A stretch of DNA of 64,000 nucleotides from Azolla caroliniana (taxonomy: Eukaryota; Plantae; Polypodiophyta), in assembly GCA_043228905.1 (NCBI GenBank), contig JBHGNT010000013.1, positions 19,654,001-19,718,000 on the forward strand, read 5' to 3'. The notes beneath the pieces were generated by a model. That model did not search any database. It worked only from the letters and a program-made list of their open reading frames with translations, and was not told the origin of the DNA. Shown here one piece after another: positions 3,224 through 62,965 of this stretch. Position 1 is the stretch's first letter, and every line of letters begins with the position of its first letter. Made by a program: the position numbers and the translations under genes.

Positions 3224-3849
3224 ACGGAAGATTATGTGATATGTGTATGTATGTGTATGAGAGGAAGAGAGAGAGGAAGATACACTTATGAACAATAAGA
3301 TAAATGGGGGATGATTAACAAGAGTGTAGCTAAAGACCTTTCTCTATATTAATAAGCAGGAAATTACAAAAATAGCCGCAATGAGGTATATATACATCTC
3401 ATGTGCAAAGGTGCACATGTGTGAGGAGAATATATGTACAAGGGTGTAAGTCTTAAATTGAATGAGCTCAATAGTGGGGAATCTAGAGATCTCCTACTTA
3501 AATATTATGAACAAAATCCTTATAGTCAACATTCAAAATAGATTCTATTTATGTAACTACTAAGTTACATGTTGACAAAAACTTCCAGACTTAGTTGAGC
3601 TTGATATCTCAACACTAGTGTTGAACCAAATGAGTTGTGATGAATAAGTAGACACCTATTTATGTCCTTATGGAGCATTCTAGAATGTTCTAGAGTATTT
3701 TAGATATTTAAGATAATGATAATGGTTAAGGGTTCGACACATATACAAAGAGGTTGTGGGTTCGAATCCTTGTAAGCCAAAATGTATATAATCATGATAG
3801 CCTCCACATTTGTCCCATGTCATGATACATTGGCGTTGCAAAAAGACCT

Positions 3850-4760
3850 CATTTTCATAGGAATCTAGTGATGCATCATGAAGCAAATGTGTTGCATCCC
3901 ATCTACCAAACCACTTTTTCATATCTTGCATCCAACCAGAACACAAAATTTTGCTTTTATACGTCTTTTGGATCTTTTTGCTTGCTTCCCAGGCAATTCT
4001 AGAAAGTCGATGTGAGGGATTTTTTTAAATCTTAAGCATGTATTGAACAACCCTTTCTATGACCATGATCTCAATGGGAAGTGATTCCGTCTTAAGGAAG
4101 AGGGTATAGGTTCAAAATGTTTTTCGATGTTTTCAATCTCTTTTAATGTAGATTTAGGTATGCTACCACCCATACTTCCACCCCATAGAGAAGCATCGGT
4201 GTCACAAAAGTGTCGAAAATGTATTACTTGAGGAACAAACACTTAATATCTCCATGATTGCATGTGTTCTCATTTAATGCATAATATGCCCTCTTTTCCC
4301 CATCTAAGCCAAGTGTAGCACATTCATTCCATCTATGATTTGAAGGAACTTCAAGGCCAAGATATCCAAAGCTTTCTACGCATTCAAGTGGCTCATTATT
4401 GTACATAATGTATGGTTTATCTTTTTGTTTACTCTTCACAAGAATGGTGTTACGGGATATTAAATGGTCATGCATGTTACGGGCATGACCATTTAATATC
4501 CCGTGGTGAGAATTTATTGTAGTATTCTATACACGTGGATAAGTAAATGGTCATGCCCGTAACAAATGGTCTTTGTTTTATAGTTATTGACACTTAATTT
4601 AGTATGCATGCAAAATAAATTCAATGCCTTCATAAGATTTTGTGCATCTTCTAAAGTATTTGCAAAAAGCACAACATCATCTGCATATAACAAAAGTATA
4701 ATGACTACATTTCCAATGACACTTTTCAAACATATATTGTATGCATATATAAATAAATAA
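3850..4760 (-). pseudogene. Decayed LINE reverse transcriptase fragment
   Basis: Minus frames give LLYADDVVLFANT, LSVNNYKTKTILV (once the 4448-4564 insert is removed) and VESFGYLG; many stops and frameshifts; ends approximate. Confidence 0.75.
4448..4564. mobile_element. 117-bp foldback element built only from one LTR terminus
   Basis: TGTTACGGG...CCCGTAACA termini; 5-bp TSD AATGG (4443-4447, 4565-4569); 4475-4543 closely matches the reverse complement of the LTR end at ~8946-9014 and ~40489-40557. Confidence 0.85.
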
Positions 4761-6015: not shown

Positions 6016-7772
6016 TGTTACCCGTATAGGTGTACGGGAGGGTTAGGTGTAATGTGGAAGGTGGTGTGTGATGTGTAATATGAAATGTGAATGTGTGAGA
6101 GTTAGGTGAGGTAAGTAGGTGTACCTACGTCCATTCGGCTTTTTGTAAAGATCTTCTATTATATAAATCCTCACTCATGGGGCATGAAAAGATGATATCG
6201 AAGTTGCTCTAAATTGTGTCTGTCTCGATTCTCACTCTCTCTCATTCGTTCGCTCTGTGGATCTCATCTCTCCCTCTCTCTCCTCACACTCAAACCCCCT
6301 TGGGAGGGGGGTGGAGCCGATCTTGGCTCCACCCCCCACCCATAAACACATGGCACGCCCTACGGCCTACCCCCCTTGAGTAGAAGTCTCTCTTTCCCTC
6401 TCTGTTCCCCTATGTGTCTCTAGGTCTTCATCTTTATGTTGTGTGTGTTTGTGCCACTCTATTGCTTGTATGCAGGAGGAGGAAGAAGCTGATTCAGAAA
6501 TTAATAAATTGCAAGAAACTAACAATCAAACACCTTCTAAATCACTCCATCAAGAGGTTCATGGCAGAGTTTGAAGGAAATGACAACAGTAGCCATAGCT
6601 AACCTATTCTGGAATAAAGTGGTGAAGTCACTTGTATATCTGGTTTAGTGCCAAGATCTGCCAATGATTCAAGTTTAGAGAAAAGAGGAATGCAAGTCAT
6701 GAGCAAGGAAGATAAAGCTGCATATGATCGATGTATAATGATGTATCAACAGAGTGCTTGTGCTTCATTAATGCTCTTCTTTGATTCTCATGAAGGGTTT
6801 GTGGTGGAACCGAATAGTGAGATCAAGTATTTAACCATTGTAGCAGAGTATATAGGTGATGTAGATTATATAAGCAAATGTAAAAGAGTAACAGAAATGA
6901 TAGAGTTAGCATTATAATGGGTTTACTCCTTACAAATTTTCTAGATAACGATTGGGTCATATGTCCTAATAAAAGAGGCCACATTGCTCTATTTGGATCA
7001 AGTATCATTAACCATGCACTAGAAGGGAAGAAGAAACAAAACCTAAGGTGTATAAGGTTCAATATTGAAGAGAAAACACATGCTTTGTTTATTTCCATCG
7101 ACAACAAGAGCCAAACGGACAAAGAGTCGGCTGGTGGATAAAGACGACCAACGCACTGAGTCAGCAGCCGGATGGCAGCAACTAGCCATGCAAATGGTTC
7201 GGCAACCAACTAGCCGATAGCCGAGATGGCCAAAGTCCTGCTAGAAAGACACAACCGAACCGAGAGCCGGCCGAACAGACGACCATGGCTAGCCGGTTGA
7301 GACCATCGGACAACGTCGGCATATAGCAACGGCCAAGTGATTTCCAACCATCGAGAGAAGACCGATGGAGTTTCCGGTCAACGAGTTTTTGGCATGGGCT
7401 TGTGGGTACGACGTGCAATGCAGTGTCCCACGGGTGTGCCATGTGTTACCCGTATAGGTATACGGGAGGGTTAGGTGTAATGTGGAAGGTGGTGTATGAG
7501 GTGTAATATGAAATGTGAATGTGTGAGTGTTAGGTGAGGTAAGTAGGTGTACCTACGTCCATTTGGCTTTTTGTAAAGATCTTCTATTATATAAATCCTC
7601 ACTCATGGGCCATGAAAAGATGATATCGAAGTTACTCTAAATTGTGTCTGCCTCCATTCTCTCTCTCTCATTCGTTCTCTCTGTGCATCTCATCTCTCCC
7701 TCTCTCCTCACACTCGAACACCCTTGGGAGGGGGGTGGAGCCGATCTTGGCTCCACCCCCCACCCATAAACA
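6016..7772 (+). mobile_element. Non-autonomous LTR element (TRIM/LARD-like, 1757 bp) with a captured gene fragment
   Basis: LTRs 6016-6348 and 7444-7772 (TGTT...AACA, ~95% identical by eye); TSD AGATC (6011-6015, 7773-7777); PBS-like TGGCACGCCC at 6351-6360; no gag or pol. Confidence 0.92.
6545..7105 (+). pseudogene. Decayed, intronless ATXR5/ATXR6-like SET-domain (H3K27 monomethyltransferase) fragment
   Basis: Motifs PRSAN..LEKRGMQVMSKED, FDSHEGFVVE, TIVAEYIGDVDY, VICPNKRGHIA, INHALEGKKKQNLRCIRFNI match the ATXR5/6 SET region; frameshift near 6900; terminal YYDYN motif absent. Confidence 0.85.
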
Positions 7773-9029
7773 AGATCTCTACCCAACCCACAGGGGTTAT
7801 CAAGAGTATTACCTCCAAGATTGAATTTGTCAGATCGATAAGATACACATTCCTTAATTTATCAACCACCACATAGGGGGGAAACATGCTTTAGACTCAT
7901 AATAGTTTTAGGGAGGCTAGATCACTCAAATAAACACAACTTATCAGTTGAACATCACTAGATTGCTTAATCCTACACAAGACAAAGAGAAAAGGCACAT
8001 TGGGATTGCAAAGACACTTAATTAAATTCAATCTTACTCTTCCCCAGGAAAATGGAAAGATCAATTGATAGTAAGTTCGTTTATAAAGTAGTTGTATTTT
8101 CCCATGACACCCTTAGACTTATGATCAATGGAAATCTTCAAGGGTTTTTCCTAGTAATTCCCAAAATGCCCTTCTATTTATGTCATATACTTATCCTAGA
8201 TTATCTTATCATATTTCTAGAACTAATTCACTTACTTAAGGCACAATCACTTATTAGATGATTAATAGTGTTCCAAAATAAAGGCCTTTGGGGATGCCAC
8301 ATCAACGTAGAGGAATGGGGAAGATATGAAGCATGGTTTAACGAAAATGTGATAAAACATACTATAAGGGAATGGATCTAGCGAGACCTAACATATAGCC
8401 GAGAGTAAGTGTTAAAAAGAGTTGTGTAGACCATCCACCTAGAGTAGGAGGGCATCCACCCATATTGAGAGGGAATCCACTCAAGAAATGAGGATCCACC
8501 CAAGGGTGAAGATAACCCAAAGAGAGAGGATATCTACTCAAAGGGACCATGTACTATGTATTAGAGATATGTACTAATGTAAGCAAAGGATAAGGATAAA
8601 TGATAGATCTAGATAGAGAGGAAAGAGAGAAAGAAGGGTGTTGATCCACCCGACCACCCCCGAGCGAAGGGATTGAGACGGACTCGAGCCTTGATCGGCG
8701 TCCCATACCACCGTCGTGGCGTCGAGTCGTACCTGGTGTTGGCGCGCTTGCTACAAGAGTTGAACACCCGAGAAACAGAGTCTCGACGTAGTCAAAAAGA
8801 TCATGAAATGAGTGTAGCTAGGCCTCTTATTTATAACAATACCCAAGGCCCCCATGCAAGTTCACACTTGGCCTAATGGGTTGTCTCAATCCCGAGGATT
8901 AAAAAGTAATCCTCCCCTTCTTTACACTCTCGTTTAACCCTCACCCTTATCCACGTGTATAGAATACTACGATAAATTCTCGCCACGGGATATTATATGG
9001 TCATGCCCGTAACATACTCCCCCTCTTTA

Positions 9030-12000
9030 AAACATTGCACTCTTGCAATGCAAAGTTAGGGAAGTTAGTTCTGAGAGTATTTTCGTGTTCCCATGTGGCA
9101 TCTTTTATTGATTTATCCATCCATTTTATTTTAAACTCTCGGATTTCTTTAGTACGTAATGTTTTTGTTTTAACATCGAGAATTCTTTTTGGTACATGTG
9201 GTTAGAAGATTATTCTTCAGAAGTAACCAGAGTTTCAGTTGTAACTGTATTGTTGCCAGAACCTAGAAGTTCTTTTAGACGACTCACATGAAAAAATGGA
9301 TGAATGTCAACACCATCGGGAAGAGCGAGACGATAGGCTGATGACCCAATGCGTTTGAGGATTGTAAAAGGTCCACAAAACCGTGGGGCTAACTTAGCGC
9401 ACGTACCCTTAGACAATGTCTTAGAATTGTGAGGTACACGTAAAAATACCTTCTGTCCAAGGTTGAATACACGAGGTTGCCTATGATGATCGGCATAAAA
9501 ACACGCTCTATCTTGAGCTGTTTTTATATTATCTCGTGCAATATGCAACATATCTTGCATATCCCGAAGAAAGTTTTGCGTACTTCGCAACTCATCATGA
9601 TGTATATTAACATCAATCGGGGCTCGTGGCTGAAAACCATACATCAACATAAAAGGACTATATCCCGTCGACGTATGCTTGGAGCTATTATAAGCAAACT
9701 CTAAAATTGGGAGATAACGTTCCCATTTTGTTGGTTTTGTACCAACATATGCTTGAAGCATGTCCTCAATAATTTGATTTACTCATTTTGTCTGTCCATC
9801 GGATTGAGGATGATCCGTGGAGCTCATGCTCAATGTAGTTTCTAACTTCTTGAGGACTTGAGTCCAGAAGTCACTAGTAAACTTTGGATCTCGATCACTC
9901 ACAATACCATCAGTAACCCATAAAAACGAAATAACTCGTCAACGAATTGGTAAGCCAATTCAGGAGTTGTTACCGTGGTTTTAGTAGCAATAAATCTGGC
10001 CATTTTAGTTAGTCTATCAACCACAACCTAGATGGCGTCATGGCCTTTTTGGGTGCGAGGAAGGCTAACAATAAAATACATGGATATACTTTCCCACTTA
10101 TTATTGGGAATTTCCAAGGGATGTAAAAGTCCTACGGCTTTAAGTCGCTCGACTTTGTTAACCTGACATTGGTGACATTTAGTCACATAGCTATGTATGT
10201 CAGGACGCATCTTAGGCCAATAGAATTGAGTGGAGATGAGAATGAGTGTACGATATATTCCATGGTGCCCCGTAGAGGGTGCATCATGGCATTCAAAAAT
10301 AATTCTCTTTTTGACCTCAGGCAAATCTAGAACACAAACCTTCCCATTACGGTAGAGCAGACCATTAGCAATGTGGAAGTATTCCTTCGAGGATGTGGTG
10401 GTGTCTGATCCATACTCAACTCTTGCCCAGTATTTCGCAAAATAACTGTCATCAGAATACTTTCCTCGAAGGTGATCATAAAGATCTGATGTTATTTCAG
10501 TGAAGCTAAGCATGTTAACTTCACAGATGCGACTTAGTGTATCAGTGACAGTGTTCATGGAACCTTTGCGATATCATATGGAAAAATCAAAGTCCTGGAT
10601 GAGATCAACCCATCGTGCCTTACGACCTTTCAGGTCTTGTTGGTCACAAAAATATTTAAAGGACTCGTGGCTCGTAGTTACCCCAAAGCGATTTACATAA
10701 ACATAATGGCGTCATGTTTTGAGCGCATGTATAATTGCAAATAACTCCTTTTCTTGAACGGTATACCAACATTGAGAAAAATCAAATTTCTTACTCTCGA
10801 ATGCTATTGGTTTACCATCTTGATATAAGACAACACATATAGCATAATTGCTTGCATCGGTTTCAACCTCAAAAGGTTTTGAGGAATCAAGTAAAAGAAG
10901 TGAAGGAGCCTTGCACACCAGTTCCTTGAGTTCCTTAAAGTCGAGGTCTAGTGTAGCATTCCAAACAAGAGGTTTTGTAGACTTATGATGTCGTGAAGAT
11001 TGTCGGCAATGGTGTGAAAATCACATAAAACGTACAAAATCGAGTATGAATCACATAAAACAATAATAGTGAATATAACATTTTAAATAATTTTAATATC
11101 TAAGTACAAAATGATAGAGGTCTTCAAGAACTTTCGAATGCACTTTATTACACGAGAAACGGACAACTAGATGTCAAGATATGAGGGTATAAAGTTTGTG
11201 AAAGGAAAAGAGAAAATTGTGAGATATCCCACATAGGCACGACAAATACGGCTCTCATCATATATAAGGTAGAGCAAAAGTTATTACCTTTGTGTCTATG
11301 TGTGGAGCATAGAGAGTTCAAGGTAACTTGAACTAAGAGTGGAGGTGGCCTAGCTACTTGTAAAGGTTTTGGCCAACCAAAACCGGACCGGTGATCCCCG
11401 GCAAAGCGACGGTGGCACACCGGCAACCGGCGAGACGGCGGAACCGACATCCGGTGCCGGCGAGGCAACGACATCCGACATCCGGCGACTAGATAAATAA
11501 ATATATAAATATATATACATATACATACAAGGAGGGCAAGTAAGGATTTGAACCTTACACCTCCAAGTTAGGAGTCAATTGGCTTACCACTAAGCCAAGA
11601 TATCTAGTTGAAATTACATTTCTATTATTGTACTTTTACATATAAATTCTCATACATGAGAGCTAAAATGAGTGACATGGTTATCATGCACTACATGTAA
11701 TACATGAGCGCCAAATGGCAAACATGCATTTTATGCATGTCTTGAACCCTCAAATGCATGAGGGAATCTATAAATGAGGGAATGAAAAAGATCAAAGGGG
11801 GATTTTCTTGGAAAAAAAAGCTTGGTACTTTAAATTAAAATTAATATTAAGAAGAAAATTCGTTATCGAATTGATCATGTAACTTGTTTCTGAAATCTAA
11901 AGTCAAGTGTTCTTAATCTCTCTCTCAATCTAAAATCAAGCGTTCTATCTTATCTCAATCTCTCTCTCTTTCAATCTATCTTAATTCCTTTCCCGCTAAC

Positions 12001-13210
12001 GCTTGTGCAAACTTCGAGTCCTTCTGGTCCAGAACCCCGGCGATTCCACCTCGCGATCCGCACCTAGTGACGGATCTTCATGACAACGCGTTTGACCTTT
12101 TAGAAGATCAATAAACGGCGTTGTCAATTGGGAGTAATTATGAAGGGATTTTCGCAAAAACCCGACAAAACCAAGGAATGGTCGAACTTCTCGAATATTA
12201 CGAAGAGTGGGCCAAAGCTTGATTTTCTCGATGCGAGAAGGATCAATTTCAACTCGTTCGGTTATGAGATATTCAAGATAAGTAATTGATTTCTTGAAGA
12301 ACTCACATTTTGAGATCTTCGCATAAAATTGTTTGTCACGCAATGTTTGTAAAACAAAGCGGACATGTTTAGCATATTCTTGTAATGTACGGCTATAAAC
12401 TAAAATATCATCCAAGAAAATAACGACAAATTTTCCAAGTTGTTCTCGGAAAATGTCATTCATTTCTTGTTGAAATGTAGCCGGAGCATTGGTCAAACCA
12501 AAAGGCATAACCAAAACCTCATAATGGCCATAGCGCGTACGAAAGGCCGTTTTAAGAACATCATCCTCACTTATACGAATTTGATGGTAGCCAGTATGGA
12601 GATCAAGTTTCGTAAAATACCGAGCTCCCCGGAGACAGTCAATTAGATCATCAACCCGGGGCAATGGATACGAATTCTTGATCGTCACTTTATTCAAGCG
12701 TCGGTAATTAATACACATACACCATGTGCCCTCTTTCTTTTTAACCGTGAGAACTAGTGCACCCCATGGAGATTTACTATAACGTATATAACCCATTCGT
12801 AAATAGTACTTCAGTTGCTTAGATACCTCATCCTCTTCGGATCGACTTAAGCGATAAGGAGGTATACTTATTGGTGCAACGCCAGGTACAATATCTACAT
12901 GATGGTCTATATTATTTTTAGGAGGTAACCCATCTAGTAATTCACTCGGAAAAACATCACGAAAATCATTTAAGATTTCATCAAGTTGTTGTTCAAAATA
13001 TGTTAATTGAACCGAGACATTATCGATATTGTAAACGTGAATGTCCGAATCAAGTACACAATAAAATAGAGTAGAACAAGACAACTCGGATATATTGATG
13101 GAGAGGAAACAATCGAGAGGGATTGTTTTTTTACACATTGAATAAAATGAGTACAATCGTTCAGTACAGAAGTTATTGAATGATGAACCCAATCAATAGA
13201 TAAAGAAGAG

Positions 13211-37135: not shown

Positions 37136-38430
37136 TATTATAGAACCAGGGATAACCCAGTATTACATCAGTGGTACAAAGATTCATTACATGGAAGTCT
37201 ACTTCCTCTAGATATAAGTATCAATAGAAATTCCTAATGAATGAATCGCCTCATTGATGTATTGTACTCTTCCATCAGCCAAGTGCATTGTATAGGTGTG
37301 ATCACTTATGGTGGGTTGGAATCCCCATATCTGAACCAAACCATCATTCACAAAGTTGTGTGAGCTTCCCGAATCAAACAAAAATTGTACGAGAGATCCA
37401 TACATAGTAAATCATTGGGACCCAATACATAGTGAGGGAAAGAACATTGACAATTACTTAAATGATGTGTATAGACTTGAAGGACATTAGGAATCTGACC
37501 TTTATGGTCTGCAGCTTTAGCTTTACTATCGTGCTCTTTCCGTTGGAGCTTTCGACATTGCTCTTTTGTATGACCCTTCTTTTTGTAGAATACGCAAAAA
37601 GGCTATTGTCGCTTACAATCGCGATCCATGAATTCATTGGGTGTCTTGCGTTTCCCAGCGAATTGTGACTGCTTAGTCCCGGGCGCTTCATTAGGTTTGT
37701 TGTGGTCCTTCGAAGTGCGTTGATAGCGAAGAACTATTTCAACGGCCTCTTCGAAGGATTTTGAATCCTTATCGTGCACTATCTAGTGATAGTCCGAATT
37801 GGGGATGCCATTGACAAAACAAGCTATTAACCAATTGTCCCTTTCTAGACCCAATTTTTGGATTTGGGTTCTAGCATGGTGGACATAGTCTTCTAGCGAA
37901 GAAAATTTCCTACTAGAGAGGTTCATTAAAGATTGAGCTGCCTCGGTTCGAGAGGGAGGTTGCAGAAATTGGCCCTTAAAAACTGTGACAAAATCTGTCC
38001 AGGTATCAGACAATTTCCCCAAAGTTCGGAGCCCACGCCACCAGGCGGCGGCCTTACCCCCTAGTTCTCGGCCGACATATGCAATCTTCGTACTAGTTGG
38101 CATGGGATAGAGCTCAAAATGAGACTCCCATCGGCCCAGCCACGTGCAGATTGCTTCTTCGGTTCTTTCCTTATTTTCTCCCATAAATGGCTTAACGACA
38201 AACAATGGTTCACCTTGTCGCTCATCAAGTCTATTAGTCTCATGTTGTAAACTAATGACACGTGCCTCGAGAGCACTTTGAGATTGCCGAAGTTCGGTCA
38301 TCTGTTGAGCGGTGAAACTAAGGTATTAGCTTATTTGTGAAAAATACATCTCAATGGACATTTGTCCAGGAGGATTTGCTTGAGTTCCTTCCGCTTGAAC
38401 GGATGACATCGGGTCATTATTTTGAGCCAT
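37136..38430 (-). pseudogene. gag and protease of the outer chromovirus (broken)
   Basis: Retrotransposon gag (WLGRWESHF, LGGKAAAWW, W.DF..VFKGQF), degenerate knuckle CVFYKKKGHTKEQC, protease FLFDSGSSHNFV and DVILGYPW. Confidence 0.85.
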
Positions 38431-40557
38431 TGAATGATTATTTCTAGCAAAGAAATAGGATAAGGTCAGACAAATAGTCATAACATCATGTCGTGATGTA
38501 AACATATCATGGGCAAACATTAATCGATATCATGATCTCACGTCAATACCCCTCTAGATGTATGAGATGAGGTTCAAGATCAGGTTACTATGGTAACACA
38601 AAGGTGTTTTAAAAACCATGGGGGTGACAAATAAATGTCTTTCCCTAATCTCTATATCGATTTTTTTCATGGCGGCTCCCCGAGGCTCAACCATGTATGT
38701 TTGCGTCATGAATAGTTTATACACGAAAAAAATGTCAACAATAAACTATGTTTCGGTGCCCACATATGTGGTTTCGGCTCTTTAAGTCCTATTACGAGGA
38801 CCCCGAAGTGCACTTAGACCTCAAGTCTAAACATGTGTTATAGTCATATGTATCAACAATGTTGTATGGTCTTGGTTATATTTGAACTCGAGACCTCGAG
38901 AACAAATACATTAAACACTTGAGCTAACCAATTAGGTTGCTCTTTTTGAATGTTATGTCTCATGCGTATAAGAGATATGCAAGGCATTTGCCCATATATG
39001 TTTTTGTAAAAGAAACATATATGTCAAGAGTCCTTATTTCCCCCTCGTTTACCACAAACTTTGTTGGTACGTTACCTAACCTCAAGTCTCGTAATTACGA
39101 TGGCATACGCCAAAGTGCAACCTAATGGTCAAGCCAAATGAGCCCTCTTTTCGTAGTAGGCCCATCACATGGTTACGTCATTATGAATGCCTTTCGTAAG
39201 AATGATCTCATGGTGGCATCGTATCCATGTAATGAGGGAGGGATGTTGGATATGTGTGTCATAGGAGCGACCTCACACGAAGTGGGTTAAGCCCTATGTA
39301 CTCAACACCATTGTGGCTATGATTGTTTCATTACGTAACGAAATCGAAGTCACCAACGGGGATGTCAACCAATAAAAAGTTGTTGAAAAAGGGATGGTGA
39401 CAATGCCATTCTCACAAAAATGTGAGGACGGCCACCAAAATCCTTTCCCCGAAAAGGAAAACATTTGATATTAAAATCACGTAATAACTTATATACACAT
39501 ATGTATATTATCACATATATACGATCAAATACGTATACACGTGACCACATATGCATATATAAAAGAAATCATAATATAAATTAGCCAAAAATGATGTAAT
39601 CGAGATACGTAAGCGAGGCATATACCCTCTATGCACACGAAACATCTAAAAATAAGGGTTAATCGTAATACGCAATTACGGTATTGACCTCATACGCATA
39701 TCAATTACATACAAATCAAGGTAATGACCTCATACGCAAACATAACATGTGTTTGTGAACGTAATACGTAATTGAGGTATTAACCTCGTACGCATACGAC
39801 ACCAATCACATATTAAATATATGTCAAATGAGGTATTGACCTCGTGCACATATGTAAACATTTTATATAACCAATTAATTACCACTACAACATCATTGAA
39901 TTAATGAAAAAAAAATTACATATGACCATATACATGATTAGAAGGGAGAAGAAAAAATAGAAAAACAAATAAGGAAAGAGTTACCGAAGTTCTTTGTTGA
40001 TCGTTGTCTGGATCAAGGCCGACAGCACATTGATCGATCACCATCAATCAAGAACACCAAAGACAACAAAAGGAACATTAGAACATGAGCTCGGATACCA
40101 ACTATTAGAGATATGTACTAATGTAAGCAAAGGATAAGGATAAACGATAGATCTAGATAGAGAGGAAAGAGAGAAAGAAGGGTGTCGATCCACCCGACCA
40201 CCCCCGAGCGAAGGGATCAAGACGGACTCGAGCCTCGATCGGCGTCCCATACCACCGTCCTGGTGTCGAGTCGTACTTGGTGCTGGCGCGCTTGCCACAA
40301 GAGTTGAACCACCGAGAAACAGAGTCTCGACATAGTCAAAAAGATCATGAAATGAGGGTAGCTAGGCCTCTTATTTATAGCAATACCCAAGGGCCCCAGG
40401 CAAGTTCACACTTGGCCTAATGGATTGTCTCAATACCGAGGATTAAAAGTAATCCTCCCCTTCTTTACACTCTCATTTAACCCTCACACTTATCCACGTG
40501 TATAGAATACTATAGTAAATTCTCACCACAGGATATTATATGGTCATGCCCGTAACA

Positions 40558-47730: not shown

Positions 47731-50700
47731 TATTAGAAATATTCAGAATCGAGTAGATAGGTATATAGAGTTACAACTGCAGAGATGGATATATGAAAAC
47801 AGAATTTCTATTACATATGAGAGTAGTTCAAAATGGTAGTTTTCCCATGCGCTCACACCTTAGAGCTTAGATAGGATATGGACCGACTCACTACAAAATT
47901 AGTGGGGACTAATGATCAATCTGACCACTGTGTGAGAAAAGTGACTTATAATCTATGTTTGGTCTTAGTATAAATGTGCAAGTCAGTTGACAGTAGTGGA
48001 GATATTCCTTTTCTGTCAACTGACTTGTCATTTAATATGACCCAACTCCCTAGGTACAGGCTAGTGCTAGATAATACTTATCTTGAAGTCAATGACGCAT
48101 ATTTCAAGACTAAGTACATCGTAACTTGCCCACAAAATATTCTAGCTGACTTGATTAGCCAATCCTTTTATCTATTTCTCTCTTTCCTAAATATATTGTG
48201 TCCTACGCATCTACGGTTTCCTAGATTAACACCTTATCGACCCATATGGTCGAGTTGCACACTAGCCGCTCCTCATTTGGGGCGCTATCACAAAATGTGC
48301 ACTCTAAGAGCACATATGGGGATAGATTTACAACTTGGGGCTGATCATTGATTATATCTAACACGCCCCCTCAATGATCAACCCATTGAGTTCACTTGGA
48401 ATTGGGCCAACACCTAGTCGTCGAAGGTGTTGTTGCAACTGTTCTGCTCCAAGCGCCTTTGTGAAGATATCTGCAGCATTTTCTGATGTTGGACAGTACT
48501 CAAGCTCCACAATCTCATCATTTATTAGCTCCCGCACATAGTGATACTGAATCTCTATGTGTTTAGTACGTGCATGAAATACGGGGTTCTTGGCAATGGC
48601 CATGCAACTCTGATTGTCACACCTCAATACCGTTGCCGTCCTTATTGGGACTGCCACATCCATAAGGATTCTTCTTAGCCAAACTACCTCGCATGCCGCT
48701 ATGCATGCTGCTTTGTATTCTGCCTCCGTTGAAGATAGTGCCACTGTTGGTTGTTTTTTACTACTCCATGAAACAGCTCCAGATCCTATTGAAAAACAAT
48801 ATCCAGAAACTGATTTTCTGGAATCACTATCTCCAGCCCAATCGGAGTCGCAATATCCACTAAGTTGGTCAATTGTTGGCTTGTAGAAGATTCCATAATT
48901 TAAAGTACCCACAATGTACTTTAATACACGTAGAGCAGCTTTCCAATGAGTCTCCTTCGGCTTGTTGCTGAATCGACTCACCACATTGACTGCAAAACAA
49001 ATATCCGGCCTAGTGTTGCATAGGAAAATTAGACTTCCTACTAGTTGTCTATACTTCCTTATGTCAACCATTGGTGATGAGTCTTCTTGGGATAGCTTGC
49101 AGTTTGACTCCATTGGAGTCGACTTCGACTTGTTGTCCATCATCCCGAAGGTCTTCAAGATCTCTGTTGCATACTTTCTTTGTGACATGAAGATGCCGAC
49201 CGAGGTTTGCCAAACCTCAATTCCAAGGAAGTAGTGTAGAATCCCCAAGTCTGTCATTTCAAACTCAGTTTTCAAACACTCTTGTGTTTGGCCAATGCAC
49301 TCTTCATGGTCACCAGTAAGTACTAGATCATCCACGTAAATGATAATGATGACTTGTTTCCCGTCCTTCATTTTGACATACATACTTGCATCCGAAGCAC
49401 ATTGCTTAAAGTCGATTGATCGTAAGAAGCTGTCTATCCTCTTGTTCCAAGCTCTTGGTGCTTGCTTTAGACCATATAGTGCCTTCTTCAGCTTGCAAAC
49501 TTTGTTTTCTGAATTCGGTATCTCAAACCCCGGTGGTTGTGTCACATATACCTCCTCCTTGAGATGCCCATTCAGAAATGCTGATTTGACATCCATTTGA
49601 TAAATCGGCCATCCTCTTGAAGCAGCCAACGCTATGACCATTCGAATTGTTGTCATGCGAGCTGTCGGGGCAAATGTTTCTTGTACATCGAACCCTTCAA
49701 TTTGGGAGTATCCTTGCGCTACTAGCATGGCCTTGAATTTCTCCAAAGAGCCATCAGCTTTATACTTTACTTTCCATACCCACTTCGTGCCTATCACCTT
49801 CTTCTTTGTTGGCCTCTCTACCAACTCCCATGTGTCATTTTTCATGATGCTATCATATTCTGATATCATCGCCTCTTTCCACTTCGGGTCGGCCATAGCT
49901 TCCTCCACCGAGGTCGGCTCACTCACTGAGCCTATGATGTCCACCATCAGAGCCATGTTGACAATGTGGTCAGAGGTTCTTCCTTGCTCCTGTATTCTTC
50001 TTGATCTTCGTAATCCATCAGTTGAAGTTTCAGGAAACTCAACTTTAGGAGTATGATCATTGAAGAGTTGTTGAGCCCACTTAGGTATTTTCTTTACATG
50101 TGGGACTGGCATAGGCTGAACTAGTGAACCATTACCATCAGATGGTTCAGCTTCCTTTTTTGGATAATGGGTCGGGATTGGGTAAAATACTTCTTCAGTT
50201 GATGAGATAACTTGAGAATCGTTGTTCTCAGCTAGTTGTGGTTGTTCCTCATCGAACACCACATCGCGGCTTGTCAATATCTTTCTTGCCTCTGGATCGT
50301 AGAGTCGATAGGCCTTTGACTCTTCACTATATCCGAGAAAGATACACTTTTTGCTTTTAGCATCCAACTTCTTTCTGCTCACATCTGGAATATGTGCGTA
50401 GCACATACACCCAAAGGTTCTGAAGTGCAGCACTGAAGGTTTCTTGCCTGAATAAGCTTCTTGGGGTGTTTTCCCTTGAAGTGCCTTCGTGTAGCTCCGA
50501 TTGAGGATGTAAACTGTTGTGTTCACTGCTTCAGCCCAGAATGGGTCGGGCAGCGCTTGTGCCTTCAACATACACCTAGCCATCTCGACAACTGTTCGAT
50601 TTCGACGTTCGACAACGCCATTTTGTTGTGGGGTGTAGGCAGTTGTAAGTTGGCGCTTAATTCCATGCTCTTTGCAATACTCACAGAATTCTATTGATAA

Positions 50701-53190
50701 GAATTCTCCACCTCGATCAGAGCGTAGCTCCTTCACTAACTTTCCAGACTCTCGCTCGACAAACTTATGCCATCTTTTGAAGATTTTAAAAGCTTCAGCC
50801 TTCTCCCAAAGGAAGTAAACCCACATCTTTCTGCTGAAGTCGTCGACTATTAGCATATAGTAGAGAGATCCACCCATTGCAGGAGTCACCATTTTTCCAG
50901 AGAGGTCAATGTGTATTAGTTGTAGAGGAGTCTTTGCCCGATTTTGACTCTCTTTTGGAATGGCTGATCTTTGATGCTTGCCCATCATACAAGCATCACA
51001 AACATGACTTAAGTCAGATAGGGTTGGCAACCCAACTACCATATTCGACTTCTTCATCTCCTTCAACACAGCAACGTTGAGATGCCCAAATCTCTCATGC
51101 CATTGCTTTGTGTTGGTACTTGTGCTGTGGTCAGTAGAAATGGTAAACGCACTCAGCTCATAGAGATTGTTGCGCCTCACCCCTATTCCTACAACCTTGC
51201 CAGCAGAATCTGTTATTTCTGCACCCGACTTCTTGAATCGAACATCAAGACCCTTGTCAGTCAGTGCAGAAATGGACAGTAGATTCTTCTTCAGATCTGG
51301 CACGTACAACACTTGAGAGAGATGCTTTGTCCCACCGGTCGTTGCTTTGAGGGAGACGGTTCCGGTTCCTTTGGCCGGACATCGAGCATTGTTCCCGACC
51401 ACAACATTGATGGGCTCTTGTAGAGGTGTCCAAGAACTGTACCAGTCACGATTACTGGTCATATGTCGGGATGCTCCACTATCGAGAATCCAAGACTCAT
51501 CAACAACTTGAGTGTCAACTGAAGAACACACTTCTTCAGTTGCGACCCATAACTCAAGTTCATCTACGACATTGTTAGCGGACTCGGGCTCTCTCCAAGA
51601 AGTCTTATTAGAACCATTCTTCTCATCCGCCATCTTCTTTCGACAATCCTTGATTGTGTGACCCTTCTTGTCACAGTAGAAACACGATCCATTGAACTTC
51701 TTCTTCTTTGGTATCCTATTCGCATTGTTTGAATTGGATGCCCCTTCACCCTTAGTCCTAGAGACAAATGCTGAATCTTCCCTTTCTTCTCTTGTCTTCA
51801 GCCGAAGCTCCTCTTCAAGCAGCATTGCACTTAGTTCATCAAATTTTAAAGGAGTGGGTCGAACCTGAGTGTTCAATGCTGTCACAATGCCATCATACTT
51901 GAAAGGAAGTACTCGAATGCACCGACGAGCCATATCCTCTTGAGAGACGACTACTCCAACAGCCGCCAGCTGATCTTGAAGATCCTTAATCCTTTTTACA
52001 AAGGATTCTACTTTCTCTCCATCAGCGAGCTTCTCTGCAGCAAGCTGATTTTCGAGGTTTTGTATCCTTGTATAGTTTCTGGTCTCATACTGGCTGGCCA
52101 ATATGCTCCAAGCTTCATGTGCCCTAGTTGTATGTTGCACTAGTGTTAGTACGGAGTCACATACACCAGTGACTATGGTACATAGCGCATCAGCATTCCT
52201 TCTCTTCCAGGCTCGAAGTAGATCAGCATTTGGAGGAATTGATGTGGTAGGGTGTGCAGGGTCAAAGGTTGCCATGGGCTCAGGGTCTCCCCCTGTGGGT
52301 CCCATGATTGTTTCCAACAACTCGTAGGAATCCAAAATGGCAGACATTTTGAACTTCCATAGAGTGTAGTTGGTTCCATCTAGCTTTCCATCAGACAATG
52401 GAGGTGGGCGAATGCGCAATGGAGCAGCTGCAACATTCGTGGACAAGGCCATTGATACTCTGTCTCTCTCTCTCTCTCTCTCTCTATTTCTCTCTGTTGC
52501 TAGACAGCAACTACCCGTATATACCTAATCTAGATCAACCTCTTCGCTCTGATACCATATTAGAAATATTGAGAATCGAGTAGATAGGTATATAGAGTTA
52601 CAACTGCAGAGATGGATATATGAAAACAGAATTTCTATTACATATGAGAGTAGTTCAAAATGGTAGTTTTCCCATGCGCTCACACCTTAGAGCTTAGATA
52701 GGATATGGACCGACTCACTACAAAATTAGTGGGGACTAATGATCAATCTGACCACTGTGTGAGAAAAGTGACTTATAATCTATGTTTGGTCTTAGTATAA
52801 ATGTGCAAGTCAGTTGACAGTAGTGGAGATATTCCTTTTCTGTCAACTGACTTGTCATTTAATATGACCCAACTCCCTAGGTACAGGCTAGTGCTAGATA
52901 ATACTTATCTTGAAGTCAATGACGCATATTTCAAGACTAAGTACATCGTAACTTGCCCACAAAATATTCTAGCTGACTTGATTAGCCAATCCTTTTATCT
53001 ATTTCTCTCTTTCCTAAATATATTGTGTCCTACGCATCTACGGTTTCCTAGATTAACACCTTATCGACCCATATGGTCGAGTTGCACACTAGCCGCTCCT
53101 CATTTGGGGCGCTATCACAAAATGTGCACTCTAAGAGCACATATGGGGATAGATTTACAACTTGGGGCTGATCATTGATTATATCTAACA
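47731..53190 (-). mobile_element. Young full-length Ty1/copia element
   Basis: 633-bp LTRs 47731-48363 and 52558-53190 (one mismatch seen); TSD ACTAT; PBS TGGTATCAGAGC (iMet) 52546-52557; PPT next to 48364. Confidence 0.97.
48358..52452 (-). CDS. Copia gag-PR-IN-RT-RNase H polyprotein, 1364 aa
   Basis: [14 protein letters not shown]; WILDSGAS; WHERFGH...CDAC; DDE; [14 protein letters not shown]; [15 protein letters not shown]; stop codon lies inside the 3' LTR. Confidence 0.96.
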
Positions 53191-54524: not shown

Positions 54525-57500
54525 ATGGCTTCTGTGAACACCCATTGCTCCATCTCTCCCATCGTCTCCGCCCCTCTCTGTACACCTTCCTCTGTTGTTG
54601 ATCCCCCCCTCCCTGCTCCCCCTAATGGTCCCGCTTTGCTTACTCCTGGCAGAATCCGCCATACCCTTCTCCAGGCACGGATGGCTCCAGATACGCTGCG
54701 GCCATTTCCATATCCAGGTTCCTGATCCATTCTCTCCATAAGTCTGCATTAGAGAAAGAATTTGTGAAGCTATCATCTTTTGCACTCAGTAGGCTGTGTT
54801 ATTTGGTTCGTCTCTGCAATAGATTTTTCTCTGTATTGTTTTTATTTTTGAAGTTTTTGACGTGTTCAATCATTCTCATTGATCTGGTTTTCAGATAATG
54901 GATTTATCTAGTTCCTTTTACATTCTTTCTTTTCCTCTCCTTTTCTCTTTTATAGCTAAGGATAATCTAAGCCAGAACAGTGAGAATGGAGGTCTTCCTT
55001 ATTCTCTACAGCCGTGGAAGGAAGAAGAAACAGTGAACAAAGTAAGGTACTTTCCCATATAAGCTTGTACACAAATTGTATTTATTCATATATCAATCCA
55101 GATATAGGTATACTTTACCTTGATGATAGTTATCTGGCACTAATTGTAATAGATGAGAGATCAAGATGTAAGCTTAGAAAATGACACCGAGCATGCGGAA
55201 TGGAAGAATGAATGGGGCATGCCTGAAGATGGATTTCACTTGACTAAGCTTTTGGAAAGAAAATCAAGAGCATTTGATATAGAAGAAAGTTTTTTTATAG
55301 CTCCTATTCTAGCAGAACAAGAAGCAAAATTTAATGATATTGGCAAGGTTAACAGTTTCAAGGGAAAAGTTGAAGATACTGAACTCAAAACATTTGATCC
55401 AGATGTCACTTCACTTCATCGCCCAACAGATTCTGAACCTTTGGATATCGAATACCTAATGGTTATGGCCAAAACATGGCATGGAAATATTACACTACAG
55501 AATGTCAGATCCTTACATAGATATATCTACAGCAAGGGATTGGAAAGTCTCACTTGTATTATGAACCATGTTATTAGTTTGTATATTGAATGCCAGAGTA
55601 TGCATAACGCTGAACAGGTGCTCGAAATGTTGTCTTATCGGAACGAACATTCATGGACTTCCCTAATCTCAGGACATGTTAAAAGCGGCCAGTTTGAATT
55701 CGCACTTAATTTGCACCAGAAAATGCTGGAGGATTGTGTCCTGCCCAGTAGCTATACATTGGTGGCTTTGTTGAAAGCATGTGCGGGACTAAAAGATCTT
55801 GAGAGGGGAAAGCATATTCATGAGCAAATAAAGAAAATGAACTTTTTGAAAGAATTGCCTGTCGGTAACACTCTGATTGGAATGTATGCAAAATGTGGAT
55901 CTCTTGAAGACGCGCAGGAGATATTTGACAATTTATTGTTCCGGAATGTCGTATCGTGGACTGCCTTGATTGGAGGGTATGCAGAGCATGGCCCTTTTGA
56001 AGAGGCGCTTAGATTTTTCTCACAAATGCACAAAGGCGGTGTATCACCGAATGATGTATCTTTTGCTTGTGCTTTGAAAGCATGTGGTAACCTTGGAGCA
56101 ATCAACAAAGGCCATGAGATACACGCCAATGTTGTATTGACAGGATCTGGAAGTGACCTTCTTGTAGGCAACAGTCTCATCGATATGTATGCAAGATGTG
56201 GTTCTCTGGTTGAAGCAGATTATGTGTTTCACAAACTAGATTCGCGAAATGTAGTTTCTTGGACGACATTAATAGGTGGCTATGCTGAAGGTGGACATGG
56301 CCTGGATGCCCTTCGATATTTTGATCAGATGAAATCAGAGGGCATCCAAGGGAATGCATTTACTTTGGCATGTGCCTTGAAAGCATGTGGTAGCATAGGA
56401 TCAATTAAAAGAGGTCAAGAAATCCACTTTGAAATTGCTCAAAATGGATATGATCTTGATCTTTCTTTGGCCAATACTTTGATTGGCATGTATGCCAAAT
56501 GCGGTTCACTTACTGAGGCTCACGATGTTTTTGATGATATGCAAATCCATGATGTTGTGTCATGGTCTGCGCTTGCTTCAGGATATGCCGAACATGGCCG
56601 TGCCCAAGATGCAGTGAAGTGCTTTGAGCAAATGCAATTGGATGGTGTCTCTCCCAATAGAGTTACATTTGCTTGTGTCTTGAAAGCCTGTGGAAGTATT
56701 GGGGCAATAGATAAGGGTAATGAGGTACATCTACTGGTGACAAAGAATGGTTTGGAAGAAGATCCACATGTTGTGAACTCCCTAATTAGCATGTATGCTA
56801 GATGTTGCTGCCTTCCTGAAGCACAGAGTGTTTTCAGAATGCTTCCTGTTTTGGATGTTGTCACGTGGAGCTCAATGATCAAAGGATATGCTCTGAATCA
56901 TGAAGGTGAGATGGCAGTGCAATGTTTCGAGGACATGAAAGAACATGGTATTAAGCCAAATTCTGTAACATTCACTTGCCTTCTCACAGCATGCAGTCAT
57001 ACTAGCCTCGTTGTTGATGGGATGAATTATTTCAAATCAATGAGAGAAGAGTACAAGATCTTGCCACTACCTGAACATTATGCATGTATACTTACATTAT
57101 TGGCAAGGTCAGGGCATCTGTTTGAAGCTGAGAGATTTCTAGACTCGATGTGTCCTTTGAGTAAAGAAACATGGGTGGCTTTGTTGACTGCTTGCAAAAC
57201 ACATGGGGAAATAGAATTAGGGTTTAGATGCTTTCAGGAGCTTGCTGAGCTAGATGAACAGGATGGGGCTGCATGGTATGTGCTAATGGCCGAGATGTAC
57301 GCTAATGCTGGTCAGTGGGAGGATGTGTATAGAATTGAACAGCTAAGGATGCAAGCAAGAGCTTATAAGAAACCTGCCATTGCCGTGATAGAAGTGAAAG
57401 GAAAGCTTCATGAGTTCATAGTAGGCCAAAATCAGAATAAAGAAGTCTCTTTGATGCTACAAAACTGGAAAGAACGCTTAAAAGATGAAGGGCATGTACC

Positions 57501-57771
57501 CCGCGTGAATCAGATCTTAAGACCTATCTCTGATAAGAATAAGGAATCATCTCTTTGTGAACATGCAGAAAAATTAGCTATGGCCTTTGGCATCCTAAAT
57601 ACTTTGGATGGGCAAACCTTGCGAATCTCAAAAAATTTACGAGTGTGTAACGATTGTCACATCACGAGTAAGATGCTAACCAAGATTGAAAAGCGTGAAA
57701 TCATTCTTCAAGACACCTCTTGTATTCATCATTTTAAGGATGGTGAGTGTTCTTGTGGTGATATGTTCTGA
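54525..57771 (+). CDS. PLS-class PPR protein with E and DYW:KP-type domain, ~965 aa; exons 54525-54717, 54956-55041, 55153-57771
   Basis: Repeated P-L-S triplets (NVVSWTALIGGY, FACALKAC, VGNSLIDMYARCG); KKPAIAVIEV, HAEKLA, CNDC, HHF..CSCGDMF. The two 5' exons are inferred from in-phase GT-AG sites and are less certain. Confidence 0.9.
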
Positions 57772-60859: not shown

Positions 60860-62875
60860 CTATCTCCTATCTGTCTTCCCAATTGATCGCTTCCCAGAAA
60901 ACAGATGTTTCGGCTTAAGGTTATATACAACCCTATCAGCTTCACCTTTCTTTGCATCCTTGTTCCTTTGCTTGACAGCTTTCTTACCTAGCTTCACAGC
61001 CTTCATTTTCTGTGCTGTATCCTTGAAACCTTCGCCTGGTTGAGCTTCCATAAGAGCTCTCGATGCCGACCTTGAACGCAATCTCAACTTCTTTGAAGGT
61101 TTATCCACATCCATTGCATCACCATCACCATCGATATCCATTGCAGAAGATCTTTCTCTTTTCCTACCTTGTCTAGATTGAGACTTGCTGCGTGCCCTAG
61201 CTACAGCAGCTGATGGGTCCATACCCATGCTTGAGAGATGTCTCTCCATTCTCAAAGCACCGAATTTCCTATCCTTATCAAACTTTCTAGGCACAATTGG
61301 CTTGCTTGACGCCGTCGTCTTCTTTGCCCTATGCTCTTCCAATAGTTTCTTCTTCCTCCTCCTTATTGCATCGAGTGCCTCTTTCTCCTCAGGAGTAAGA
61401 TCTTCATCACTCATTTCAGAGCCTTCTTCACCCTCCTCAGCTTCTCGAAGGCCTTGCTCATCTTCCAATTCTTCCAGTCGTTGTAGAATGTCCTTGTCAA
61501 TGAAATCTGCAACGTTGTGCCCATCCATGATTTCAGGAATGATATCTTCTTTCCATTCATCATCAGCCAAGATATACTTCTTGCGAAGGTTGGACGAGTA
61601 AACACCTGCACCACCATTCTCATTCTCCAGATCCTTTTCAAGCTTCTTTTCCTTTGTGGGAGCTTTGGCCCAACCTTCAAGAACAGCCTGAGGGATACAG
61701 GGAGGTCTATCCTTACCATCTCTGGGCCGGGGCATGGCTACATGAATCCTATTTAAACAATCGCTAAGCTTCTTGGACTTCATCTTCACCTCCACGCGTT
61801 GAGATAATAGCCTCTCACATGCTGCATTCCTCACAGCTATGACACCTTCCTCAGTGAGAGTGCTCATAGTAACCAAGCAGTCATCAGAGCTAGTTAATTC
61901 ATCCATAACCAGGCCAGCTCCATCACATTTTGCAGCTTCGGCTTTCATGTTCATGATAATCTTTTTATCTTCTTCTGGGAGTGTCTCAAGGGGTTGCAAA
62001 TCTACTTTATTGCACACCACTAGCAATGGCTTGTTTACAAACAAAGGCTTGATACTATGAAATAATGCAGCTTGCTGCTCTAAAGTATAGCCACAAGCAC
62101 CTGATATGTCTACAAAGAAGAGAACGGCAGCTCTTAAATGAGCCAAAGCAGTAATACTAAGCATTTCAATAGTGTTCCGATCCTCCAAGGGATGATCTAA
62201 AATCCCTGGAGTATCAATAACTTGCCATCTAAGATACTTATAATCGGTATGGCCAACAAAGAGAGACTTGGTTGTGAATGCGTAGGGCTGAACATCCACA
62301 TCAGCTCTGGTTATCTTGTTAATGAAAGAGCTTTTACCAACGTTAGGGTAACCACAAATCAAGATAGTTCTAGTGTTTGGATCAATGCTGGGGAGCCTTG
62401 ACATATGTTGCCTAACTTGTTCTAAGTAAGCTAAACTCGGACCGATTCTCTTCATTATAGTACACATCCTACCGAGTGCGGAAACCTTCAGTTTCTTACA
62501 TCTATACAGAGTATCACCATACTTAAGCAGCCTCACATAGTCTTTGCATACCTTGCTGATGAGGTTTCTTGCAGTGTTTATCTGACCAAGGGCAAGCTTG
62601 TAGTGGTCTTTGTCATACAGAACGTTGAGAAGGTCCGCATAGAAAGGATGGATGTCATCAACGCGAGGGAAGTCTTCGATGATTTTGGAAAGCTTCTCAT
62701 GGAAGTTCTGCTGAGTGTATTTCACCTTACGCATGTAGAACTGACGTAGGCGATTGATGGAGTAACCCTTGTGGACGACGGTGGGGGTCTGCCGCTGCGT
62801 GCGAGAGAGGATGATGTCGATGAAGTCTTTGGAAGTGGGGACGATGGTGATCTGCTTGAAATTGTAGAGCACCAT
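60860..62875 (-). CDS. NOG1: Nucleolar GTP-binding protein 1 (NOG1), 671 aa, single coding exon
   Basis: MVLYNFK.I..VP, RTQRQTPTVVH, G1 GYPNVGKS, G3 DTPG, G4 NKVD, C-terminal KPKHLFSGKR.IGKTDRR. Confidence 0.96.
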   Translation of the reverse strand: MVLYNFKQITIVPTSKDFIDIILSRTQRQTPTVVHKGYSINRLRQFYMRKVKYTQQNFHEKLSKIIEDFPRVDDIHPFYADLLNVLYDKDHYKLALGQINTARNLISKVCKDYVRLLKYGDTLYRCKKLKVSALGRMCTIMKRIGPSLAYLEQVRQHMSRLPSIDPNTRTILICGYPNVGKSSFINKITRADVDVQPYAFTTKSLFVGHTDYKYLRWQVIDTPGILDHPLEDRNTIEMLSITALAHLRAAVLFFVDISGACGYTLEQQAALFHSIKPLFVNKPLLVVCNKVDLQPLETLPEEDKKIIMNMKAEAAKCDGAGLVMDELTSSDDCLVTMSTLTEEGVIAVRNAACERLLSQRVEVKMKSKKLSDCLNRIHVAMPRPRDGKDRPPCIPQAVLEGWAKAPTKEKKLEKDLENENGGAGVYSSNLRKKYILADDEWKEDIIPEIMDGHNVADFIDKDILQRLEELEDEQGLREAEEGEEGSEMSDEDLTPEEKEALDAIRRRKKKLLEEHRAKKTTASSKPIVPRKFDKDRKFGALRMERHLSSMGMDPSAAVARARSKSQSRQGRKRERSSAMDIDGDGDAMDVDKPSKKLRLRSRSASRALMEAQPGEGFKDTAQKMKAVKLGKKAVKQRNKDAKKGEADRVVYNLKPKHLFSGKRSIGKTDRR

Positions 62876-62965
62876 GTCTGCAGAACGAGGGGGGGGGAGA
62901 AAGATCTCTCGGCGTGGCTGCTGTGAGAAAGACACAGACCGAAGAGGAGTGCTCAGCGAAGGGAA

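What the first reader, a model, noticed from the sequence alone, without database searches (positions are those of the whole stretch)
4443..4569. 117-bp U3-U3 foldback mini-element integrated with a clean 5-bp TSD
Seen: the insert is made only of the U3 terminus of the LTR family at 8559/40103. A 69-bp block (4475-4543) is flanked by inverted copies of itself: a perfect 22-bp IR (4452-4473/4483-4504) and a perfect 21-bp IR (4475-4495/4544-4564). Both ends read TGTTACGGG and the TSD is AATGG. There is no U5, PBS or PPT. The parent's other end is non-canonical (TA). Inference: template switching on a nascent strong-stop DNA produced a tiny substrate with two att sites that integrase inserted, i.e. 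a MITE-like product of an LTR retrotransposon and a possible hairpin siRNA source.
Basis: partly seen in the sequence, partly recalled or inferred. Interest (0 to 1): 0.7.

Follow-up and report, generated by a model that had tools for sequence, protein, structure and literature searches.

The report
Retrotransposon end fold-backs inserted by integrase
This 117-base insert is one of dozens of tiny hairpin-shaped pieces in a plant genome, built only from the left end of one retrotransposon family and mostly flanked by their own 5-base target duplication; they are likely dead-end copying slips that the element's integrase inserted, which would mean it can work on pieces as short as 34 bases.

Summary
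The structure is real: 117 bp made only of U3 bases 1-69 of a chromovirus-type Ty3/gypsy LTR, with two perfect inverted repeats, TG...CA ends and a 5-bp duplication. Empty copies of the host repeat hold exactly 5 bases there.

It is one of a class. A strict U3-U3 pattern gives 71 matches (control 0, chance about 1). Of 65 inspected, 44 have an exact 5-bp duplication and none an exact 4-, 6- or 7-bp one. No two are identical, one junction recurs in five subfamily haplotypes, and the arms share a haplotype in 30 of 34. So they arise repeatedly and do not spread as a MITE. The smallest are 34 bp. U5-U5 forms are rare (3), and two other families showed none with a duplication.

Likely mechanism: short plus strands fold back into hairpins and integrase inserts two U3 ends, probably from two donors. 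Why this family does it is unexplained; the TA end is not required. I found no description in 10 literature searches. The scan noted only Penelope-derived fold-backs in other genomes.

The parts
4443..4447 (+). left copy of the 5-bp target-site duplication (AATGG)
   Evidence: empty paralogs hold one 5-mer here
4448..4456 (+). U3 bases 1-9, left att end (TG...)
   Evidence: exact match to core 1-9
4452..4473 (-). inverted U3 bases 30 to 9; with 4448-4456 it is a truncated copy of the 34-bp fold-back unit that switches at the ACGGG/CCCGT repeat
   Evidence: the same cap occurs at 16 matches genome-wide
4474..4474 (+). single A before the inner U3 start; possibly a remnant of the unprocessed TA dinucleotide (weak)
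   Evidence: one base only
4475..4544 (+). U3 bases 1-69/70 (core); lacks the LTR's TATA box, R, U5, PBS and PPT
   Evidence: 94-96% identical to both window LTRs; 100% to C3:9305561 over 71 bases
4544..4564 (-). inverted U3 bases 21 to 1, right att end (...AACA)
   Evidence: same junction in L007
4565..4569 (+). right copy of the 5-bp target-site duplication
3799..4733 (.). multi-copy host repeat interrupted by the insert (81-89% identical to paralogs over 3799-4445 and 4570-4733); class not determined
40103..40557 (-). 5' LTR of a parent-family element (TG...TA), followed by GT and a Met-type PBS at 40089-40100 (tRNA label recalled)
8559..9014 (-). 3' LTR of the same element, preceded by the PPT (9017-9028) and TA (9015-9016); 94% identical to the 5' LTR
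9210..13192 (-). broken pol of the parent element (RT, integrase zinc finger, Tf2-type SH3); gag at 37783-38325; other elements are nested between

Best explanation
The insert is one of a recurrent class of tiny U3-only fold-back insertions from one chromovirus family, likely made when short plus-strand DNAs fold back during reverse transcription and integrase likely inserts two such U3 ends together. Step 1 (inferred, with Ty3 precedent): repeated priming at the PPT releases short plus strands that start TA-TGTTACGGG. Step 2 (junctions shown, enzyme inferred): their 3' ends pair at short inverted repeats in U3 (5/30, 23/67, 50-60/88-97) and are extended back to base 1, giving hairpins with one complete att end. 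Step 3 (signature shown): both ends stop exactly at CA and the duplication is exactly 5 bp. Step 4 (inferred): the two ends probably belong to two hairpin donors held in one intasome. Swapping of the paired arms plus replication would give the simple class. End-joining of the two tails would give dimer-like forms such as this one, read as a truncated 34-base hairpin (4448-4473) joined to a 90-base hairpin (4475-4564). The products lack PBS and PPT and do not spread.
For: Strict pattern: 71 matches, reversed control 0, chance 1.1, among 2435 U3 starts. 5 of the first 28 distinct U3-start loci on C1 are such inserts. Of 65 inspected, 44 have an exact 5-bp duplication and 57 have at most 1 mismatch (null 0.2% and 2%); exact 4-, 6- and 7-bp duplications number 0. 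30 of 44 two-arm members have junction overlap of 2 or more bases. Both arms share a haplotype in 30 of 34 (permutation mean 9.9, maximum 18 in 20000); the 147-bp junction lies on five haplotypes; there are 0 identical pairs. Unprocessed ends lie inside some products: PPT end plus TA before a 5' LTR in L155 (full element, exact TSD), 12 PPT bases plus TA in L085, and 9 PBS bases in L149. Two 34-bp inserts, a 46-bp one and a 51-bp one have exact duplications. Intasomes integrate two separate oligonucleotide ends in concert (PMC5329712, passages). PPT recycling displaces plus strands in Ty3 (PMC5371799, passages). Self-priming of strong-stop DNA occurs in HIV-1 in vitro (PMC6088434, passages).
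Against: No intermediate was observed, so the two-donor step rests on the size argument (general knowledge of DNA stiffness) and on segment order. Only about 11 of 17 complex members parse as two hairpins joined (counting unresolved 9-base starts as forward); the rest need extra switches. L091 is a perfect palindrome about TATA and L050 has a loop of about 2-3 bases, which intramolecular snap-back cannot easily prime. L079 has discordant arms at one site and L038 at one site. The internal TA in L080 and L157 and the A here have other readings. The family's first 100 bases are not unusually foldable (z -0.57), so its high rate is unexplained. [quoted passage not shown] 8 of 65 have 2-4 mismatches in the duplication.
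Confidence: 0.55

Rival explanations
1. One double-stranded mini-cDNA is made wholly by reverse transcriptase (fold-back or a switch onto the displaced plus strand, then re-priming at the copied PPT) and is integrated by both of its own ends.
For: It explains same-haplotype arms (30 of 34), multi-switch members, internal PPT and TA remnants and perfect palindromes. PPT recycling is described for Ty3 (PMC5371799).
Against: Members of 34, 46 and 51 bp with exact duplications would need both ends of one very short duplex in one intasome. MMTV and RSV intasomes were built on 22-bp ends each (PMC5329712). The bending argument is inference.
Confidence: 0.25
2. Integrase inserts the U3 ends of two separate linear cDNAs, and host microhomology end-joining then fuses the resected tails; no RT fold-back is needed.
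For: Junction microhomology, patchwork junctions, perfect palindromes, rare U5-U5 forms, and two loci with long target duplications that point to host repair (L126, L158).
Against: Arms are short (long arm 54-269 bases, most under 135), and among the first 100 starts on C1 there are 3 facing pairs under 220 bp and none between 220 bp and 9 kb. Full-length donors would need kilobases of resection on both sides. Arms are nearly always the same haplotype. A 4-fold larger family shows none.
Confidence: 0.13
3. A propagating MITE-like family derived once from the LTR end and moved by integrase or a transposase.
For: Terminal inverted repeats, small size, dozens of loci, recurring lengths of 145 and 147 bp.
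Against: 0 identical pairs among 65, best pair 96%; the same junction carries five subfamily haplotypes; lengths run from 34 to 378 bp; no second copy of the 117-mer among 40 scored candidates of 806.
Confidence: 0.04
4. Assembly or amplification artefact (fold-back chimeras), or rearrangement of a solo LTR after integration.
For: The right junction was not covered by any listed contig, and fold-back chimeras are a known library artefact (recalled).
Against: The left junction and cap are in contigs of two studies. Exact 5-bp duplications flank 44 of 65. Empty paralogs have one 5-mer. A later rearrangement would not rebuild a CA end flush with the duplication.
Confidence: 0.03

Closest known systems
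Solo LTRs and short non-autonomous LTR elements (TRIM, SMART; PMC13570524, passages)
   Same: Derived from an LTR family, no coding sequence, TG...CA ends, short target duplication.
   Different: Those have U3...U5 polarity, and TRIM-type elements are defined by direct LTRs with a PBS. Here both ends are U3 in inverted orientation, with no PBS, PPT or U5, and no sign of further copying.
Ty3 PPT recycling with dead-end plus-strand strong-stop DNA (PMC5371799, passages)
   Same: Ty3/gypsy element, Met-type PBS, repeated priming and displacement of short plus strands would supply the raw material.
   Different: There they are described as dead-end products in particles, not as folded back or integrated.
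Self-priming of HIV-1 minus-strand strong-stop DNA (PMC6088434, passages)
   Same: A strong-stop strand folds back and RT extends it into a hairpin.
   Different: Minus strand and U5 side, in vitro, suppressed by nucleocapsid, and not reported as integrated in the passages read.
Concerted integration of two oligonucleotide ends by retroviral intasomes (PMC5329712, passages)
   Same: Two separate short donors of one end type inserted together with a fixed stagger.
   Different: An in vitro assay; here it would be a heritable in vivo product with the break resealed.
Aberrant one-ended retroviral integrations (PMC5041404, passages) and composite Ty1 insertions (PMC2939329, Introduction)
   Same: Integrase-dependent by-products with rearranged element DNA.
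   Different: One-ended events usually have long duplications and one truncated end; here both ends are exact with 5 bp. The Ty1 composites involve transformed DNA.
Auto-integration inversion circles in Arabidopsis particles (PMC7197481, passages) and inverted double insertions (PMC5932611, passages)
   Same: Inverted LTR-element sequence.
   Different: Those are circles or whole elements back to back with a target motif at the junction, not U3 tips facing inward inside one duplication.
MITEs (definition recalled; search listings)
   Same: Short, non-coding, terminal inverted repeats, target duplication.
   Different: No clonal amplification; every copy is re-derived from an LTR.

Membership tests
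Solo LTR | One full LTR from the U3 start to the U5 end | tested here: not met
   Only U3 1-69; the right end is inverted U3
Solo LTR | Target duplication of the family's size | tested here: met
   5 bp, as in the parent
TRIM/SMART | Two direct LTRs | tested here: not met
   Arms are inverted
TRIM/SMART | PBS and PPT for trans-mobilisation | tested here: not met
   None in the window insert; among 65, 1 PBS-like hit and 0 PPT hits by my motifs, though L085 holds a variant PPT by eye
MITE | Terminal inverted repeats, short, non-coding | tested here: met
MITE | Many near-identical copies from amplification of a founder | tested here: not met
   0 identical pairs among 65; one junction on five haplotypes
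MITE | Ends shared with an autonomous DNA transposon | tested here: inconclusive
   The ends are those of an LTR retrotransposon; I did not search for a DNA transposon with the same ends
Integrase-made insertion | Both ends flush at CA with a fixed 5-bp duplication | tested here: met
   44 of 65 exact at 5 bp and 0 at 4, 6 or 7 bp; the ends were selected by the search pattern, the duplications were not
Integrase-made insertion | Dependence on integrase catalysis | not testable with these tools
   Needs an in vitro or mutant assay
Chromovirus (parent family) | Ty3/gypsy order gag-PR-RT-RH-IN with a C-terminal chromodomain | tested here: met
   One copy (L093): Pfam Chromo 29.6 bits against cut-off 25.1, after rve and SH3_Tf2-1
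Chromovirus (parent family) | Placement in a named clade (Tekay, Reina, Tcn1 and others; names recalled) | not tested
   No reference set was at hand
Hairpin small-RNA locus | Transcription and processed small RNAs | not testable with these tools
   Folds at -51.4 kcal/mol, z -7.4, as expected from its construction; no Rfam match; no small-RNA data

The most novel reading that the evidence does not exclude
A plant chromovirus integrase routinely pairs two free hairpin by-products of plus-strand synthesis, with stems as short as 9 bp, in one intasome and inserts them into the germline. This leaves 34-380-bp inverted-repeat elements at up to roughly one in six of the family's U3-start loci. It would be an undescribed in vivo two-donor integration route, a natural map of RT fold-back sites and of the minimal att end, and a source of MITE look-alikes made de novo by a class I element.
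Probability: 0.4. Interest if true: 0.78.

Novelty: new variant of a known kind. Interest (0 to 1): 0.62.

Why it matters
Strong-stop DNAs and their fold-backs are regarded as dead ends inside the particle. Here they appear to reach the germline through integrase at a high rate. The census gives in vivo bounds on how little end sequence an LTR integrase needs (9-bp inverted ends on a 34-bp insert) and a fossil record of where RT switches. It makes testable whether the two ends in an intasome must come from one molecule. It also warns annotators, since these inserts would pass as a MITE family although each is made afresh. They scatter short palindromes of promoter-side LTR sequence through the genome; any regulatory effect is untested.

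Tried and rejected
1. TA end as the cause: rejected as necessary. In a subsample, 23 of 79 U5 ends are CA (counted by eye). 22 of 58 typed inserts carry a haplotype whose 3 sampled LTRs end in CA or CT. A TG...TA copia family in the window gave 0 U3-U3 matches (its copy number was not counted).

2. Unusual U3 secondary structure as the cause: z -0.57, weaker than the other three families tested.

3. General property of LTR families: a second gypsy family has 10016 starts and 6 facing pairs (chance 18.7). None of the 4 inspected has a duplication, and 3 of them run into PPT-side sequence.

4. The first U5-U5 pattern was too narrow (0 matches). The wider one gave 9 strand matches at 4 places, of which 3 are U5-U5 inserts with a duplication.

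5. The loose U3 pattern (136 matches) had a reversed control of 123 from an unidentified source, so it was used only to list loci. 7 of its 50 listed places were not family inserts.

6. A genome-wide count of facing pairs more than 400 bp apart could not be run; only the first 100 starts on C1 were checked.

7. No RNA holder was listed, which is no evidence on expression. No listed contig covered the right junction, which proves nothing. No Rfam match.

8. Dropped before the count of 65: L008 (same flanks as L029), L034 (solo LTR with an internal match), L037 (unrelated), L092 (right end reads AACC; it has a GAAGG duplication) and L002/L019 (read as a nested insertion). The cap-pattern loci new and L112/L113 are reported separately.

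9. Literature searches found no description of U3-U3 integrated mini-elements. The library lacks most subscription papers, including Lauermann and Boeke 1997 (not held). No supplements were read.

Full report
Observation. The 117 bases at 4448-4564 consist only of the first 69-70 bases of an LTR found twice in the window. In order they are U3 1-9, inverted 30-9, one A, U3 1-69 and inverted 21-1. The site lies in a multi-copy repeat: 10 of 11 fetched paralogs could be parsed, and each has exactly five bases between the same flanks, so the duplication is real. Contigs from two studies match 4392-4500 without a difference, bridging the left junction. The right junction was not covered in the listed pieces.

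Parent. The two LTRs (40103-40557 and 8559-9014, minus strand, 94% identical) bound one element with duplication CATAG, a Met-type PBS (label recalled) and a PPT followed by TA. One copy elsewhere carries gag, protease, RT, RNase H, integrase and a chromodomain above the Pfam cut-off, so the family is a chromovirus-type Ty3/gypsy; the clade was not determined. A DYW-type PPR gene in the window indicates a land plant. U5 ends are TA in 56 and CA in 23 of a 79-match subsample.

The class. A strict pattern (13 terminal bases facing their reverse complement within 10-400 bases) gives 71 matches, with reversed control 0 and chance expectation 1.1. Two of the 50 listed rows are one locus. The same 13-mer occurs 2435 times, and 5 of the first 28 distinct loci on C1 are inserts of this kind. 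I inspected 65 loci taken from the listed parts; they are 51-378 bp, median 137. Of these, 44 have an exact 5-bp duplication (43 different 5-mers), 13 have one mismatch and 8 have two to four; random flank pairs match exactly 0.2% of the time. Exact duplications of 4, 6 or 7 bases number 0. A pattern for the left cap of this insert gave 16 matches at 15 loci. They include two 34-bp inserts, a 46-bp one and an 84-bp one with exact duplications (one is GGGGG, low in complexity), a full-length element with the cap in front of its 5' LTR, a whole LTR plus 9 PBS bases closed by a cap, and three loci where no duplication was found.

Recurrent, not propagating. No two of the 65 are identical. The commonest junction (147 bp, at a 10-base imperfect inverted repeat) sits on five subfamily haplotypes. 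Both arms carry the same haplotype in 30 of 34 testable inserts against 9.9 by permutation; two of the four exceptions differ only where a decayed motif could not be parsed, and two differ at one site. Several rare variants are shared by both arms. Two-arm members show junction overlap of 2 or more bases in 30 of 44.

Controls. U5-U5 inserts exist but only 3 were found, of 177-312 bp, mostly CA-ended. A four-fold larger gypsy family has 6 facing pairs, below chance, and none of 4 inspected has a duplication. A TG...TA copia family has none (copy number unknown). The family's U3 does not fold better than shuffles, and inserts also come from a haplotype whose three sampled LTRs end in CA or CT. 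The reason for the high rate in this family is therefore open.

Mechanism. Flush CA ends with a fixed 5-bp duplication point to concerted strand transfer by integrase; one-ended events in HIV-1 usually leave much longer duplications (PMC5041404, passages). PPT or PBS bases inside some products (L155, L085, L149) and the shortness of the arms point to origin before integration, at the start of plus-strand synthesis. Ty3 re-primes its PPT and displaces short plus strands, which accumulate (PMC5371799, passages), and strong-stop DNA can self-prime (PMC6088434, passages). The 34-base unit folds into a 9-bp stem and the 90-base core of this insert into a 21-bp terminal stem, each ending in a complete att end. 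A 34-bp duplex is unlikely to place both ends in one intasome (inference), whereas intasomes accept two separate short ends (PMC5329712, passages). I therefore favour two hairpin donors, resolved by arm swap (simple class) or by end-joining (dimer-like class, about 11 of 17 complex members, including this one), at 0.55. A single RT-made duplex (0.25) and host joining of two linear ends (0.13) remain. At least one perfect palindrome (L091) needs two strands at the priming step.

Comparison and novelty. It fails the membership tests for solo LTR, TRIM and MITE, and works like an aberrant integrase product. Ten literature searches gave no description of integrated U3-U3 minis. I read passages of PMC7197481, PMC5371799, PMC11042837, PMC5932611, PMC13570524, PMC9804982, PMC6088434, PMC5329712 and PMC5041404, and passages plus the Introduction of PMC2939329; no supplements. 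Most subscription papers are outside the library. TG...TA ends are known in plants, mostly in copia elements in lotus (PMC9804982).

Verdict. Real and recurrent, a new variant of LTR-retroelement by-products with a testable and possibly new integration route; probably inert once inserted. Interest 0.62.

Noticed in passing
window 47731-53190 (minus strand): A young copia element (LTRs 99.8% identical, duplication ACTAT) also has TG...TA ends, so non-canonical TA ends occur in both superfamilies here.
   Followed up: partly
window 8559-40557: The parent element is stretched to 32 kb by several nested LTR elements (LTR pairs at 14098/20603, 30752/34844 and others); Ns precede 28897.
   Followed up: no
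L155/L093 (G000:C13:10697.4-10704.4 kb): A full-length family member with an exact duplication (CAAGC) carries a 32-base fold-back cap, including PPT-end bases plus TA, in front of its 5' LTR.
   Followed up: yes
L126, L128, L129: Three U5-U5 inserts (177, 280 and 312 bp) with 5-bp duplications; L126 has one TA end and an extra duplicated target stretch.
   Followed up: partly
L094 207-1208 and L151: Elements that start at U3, jump after 30-92 bases into the end of the integrase region and finish with a normal 3' LTR, with 5-bp duplications: another template-switch product class.
   Followed up: partly
L130-L132: In the second gypsy family, U3 fold-backs attached to PPT-side sequence; L130 is a 109-bp palindrome with PPT on both sides. 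The far ends were not fetched.
   Followed up: no
genome-wide, control: The reversed control pattern had 123 matches, which may be an unrelated inverted-repeat family; it was not inspected.
   Followed up: no
window 6017-7772: A 1.76-kb element with 336-bp direct repeats (TG...CA), TRIM-like in size; both LTR ends fold much better than shuffles (z -4 and -5).
   Followed up: no
window 55153-57771 and 60860-62965: Host genes: a DYW-type PPR protein and a NOG1 GTPase.
   Followed up: no
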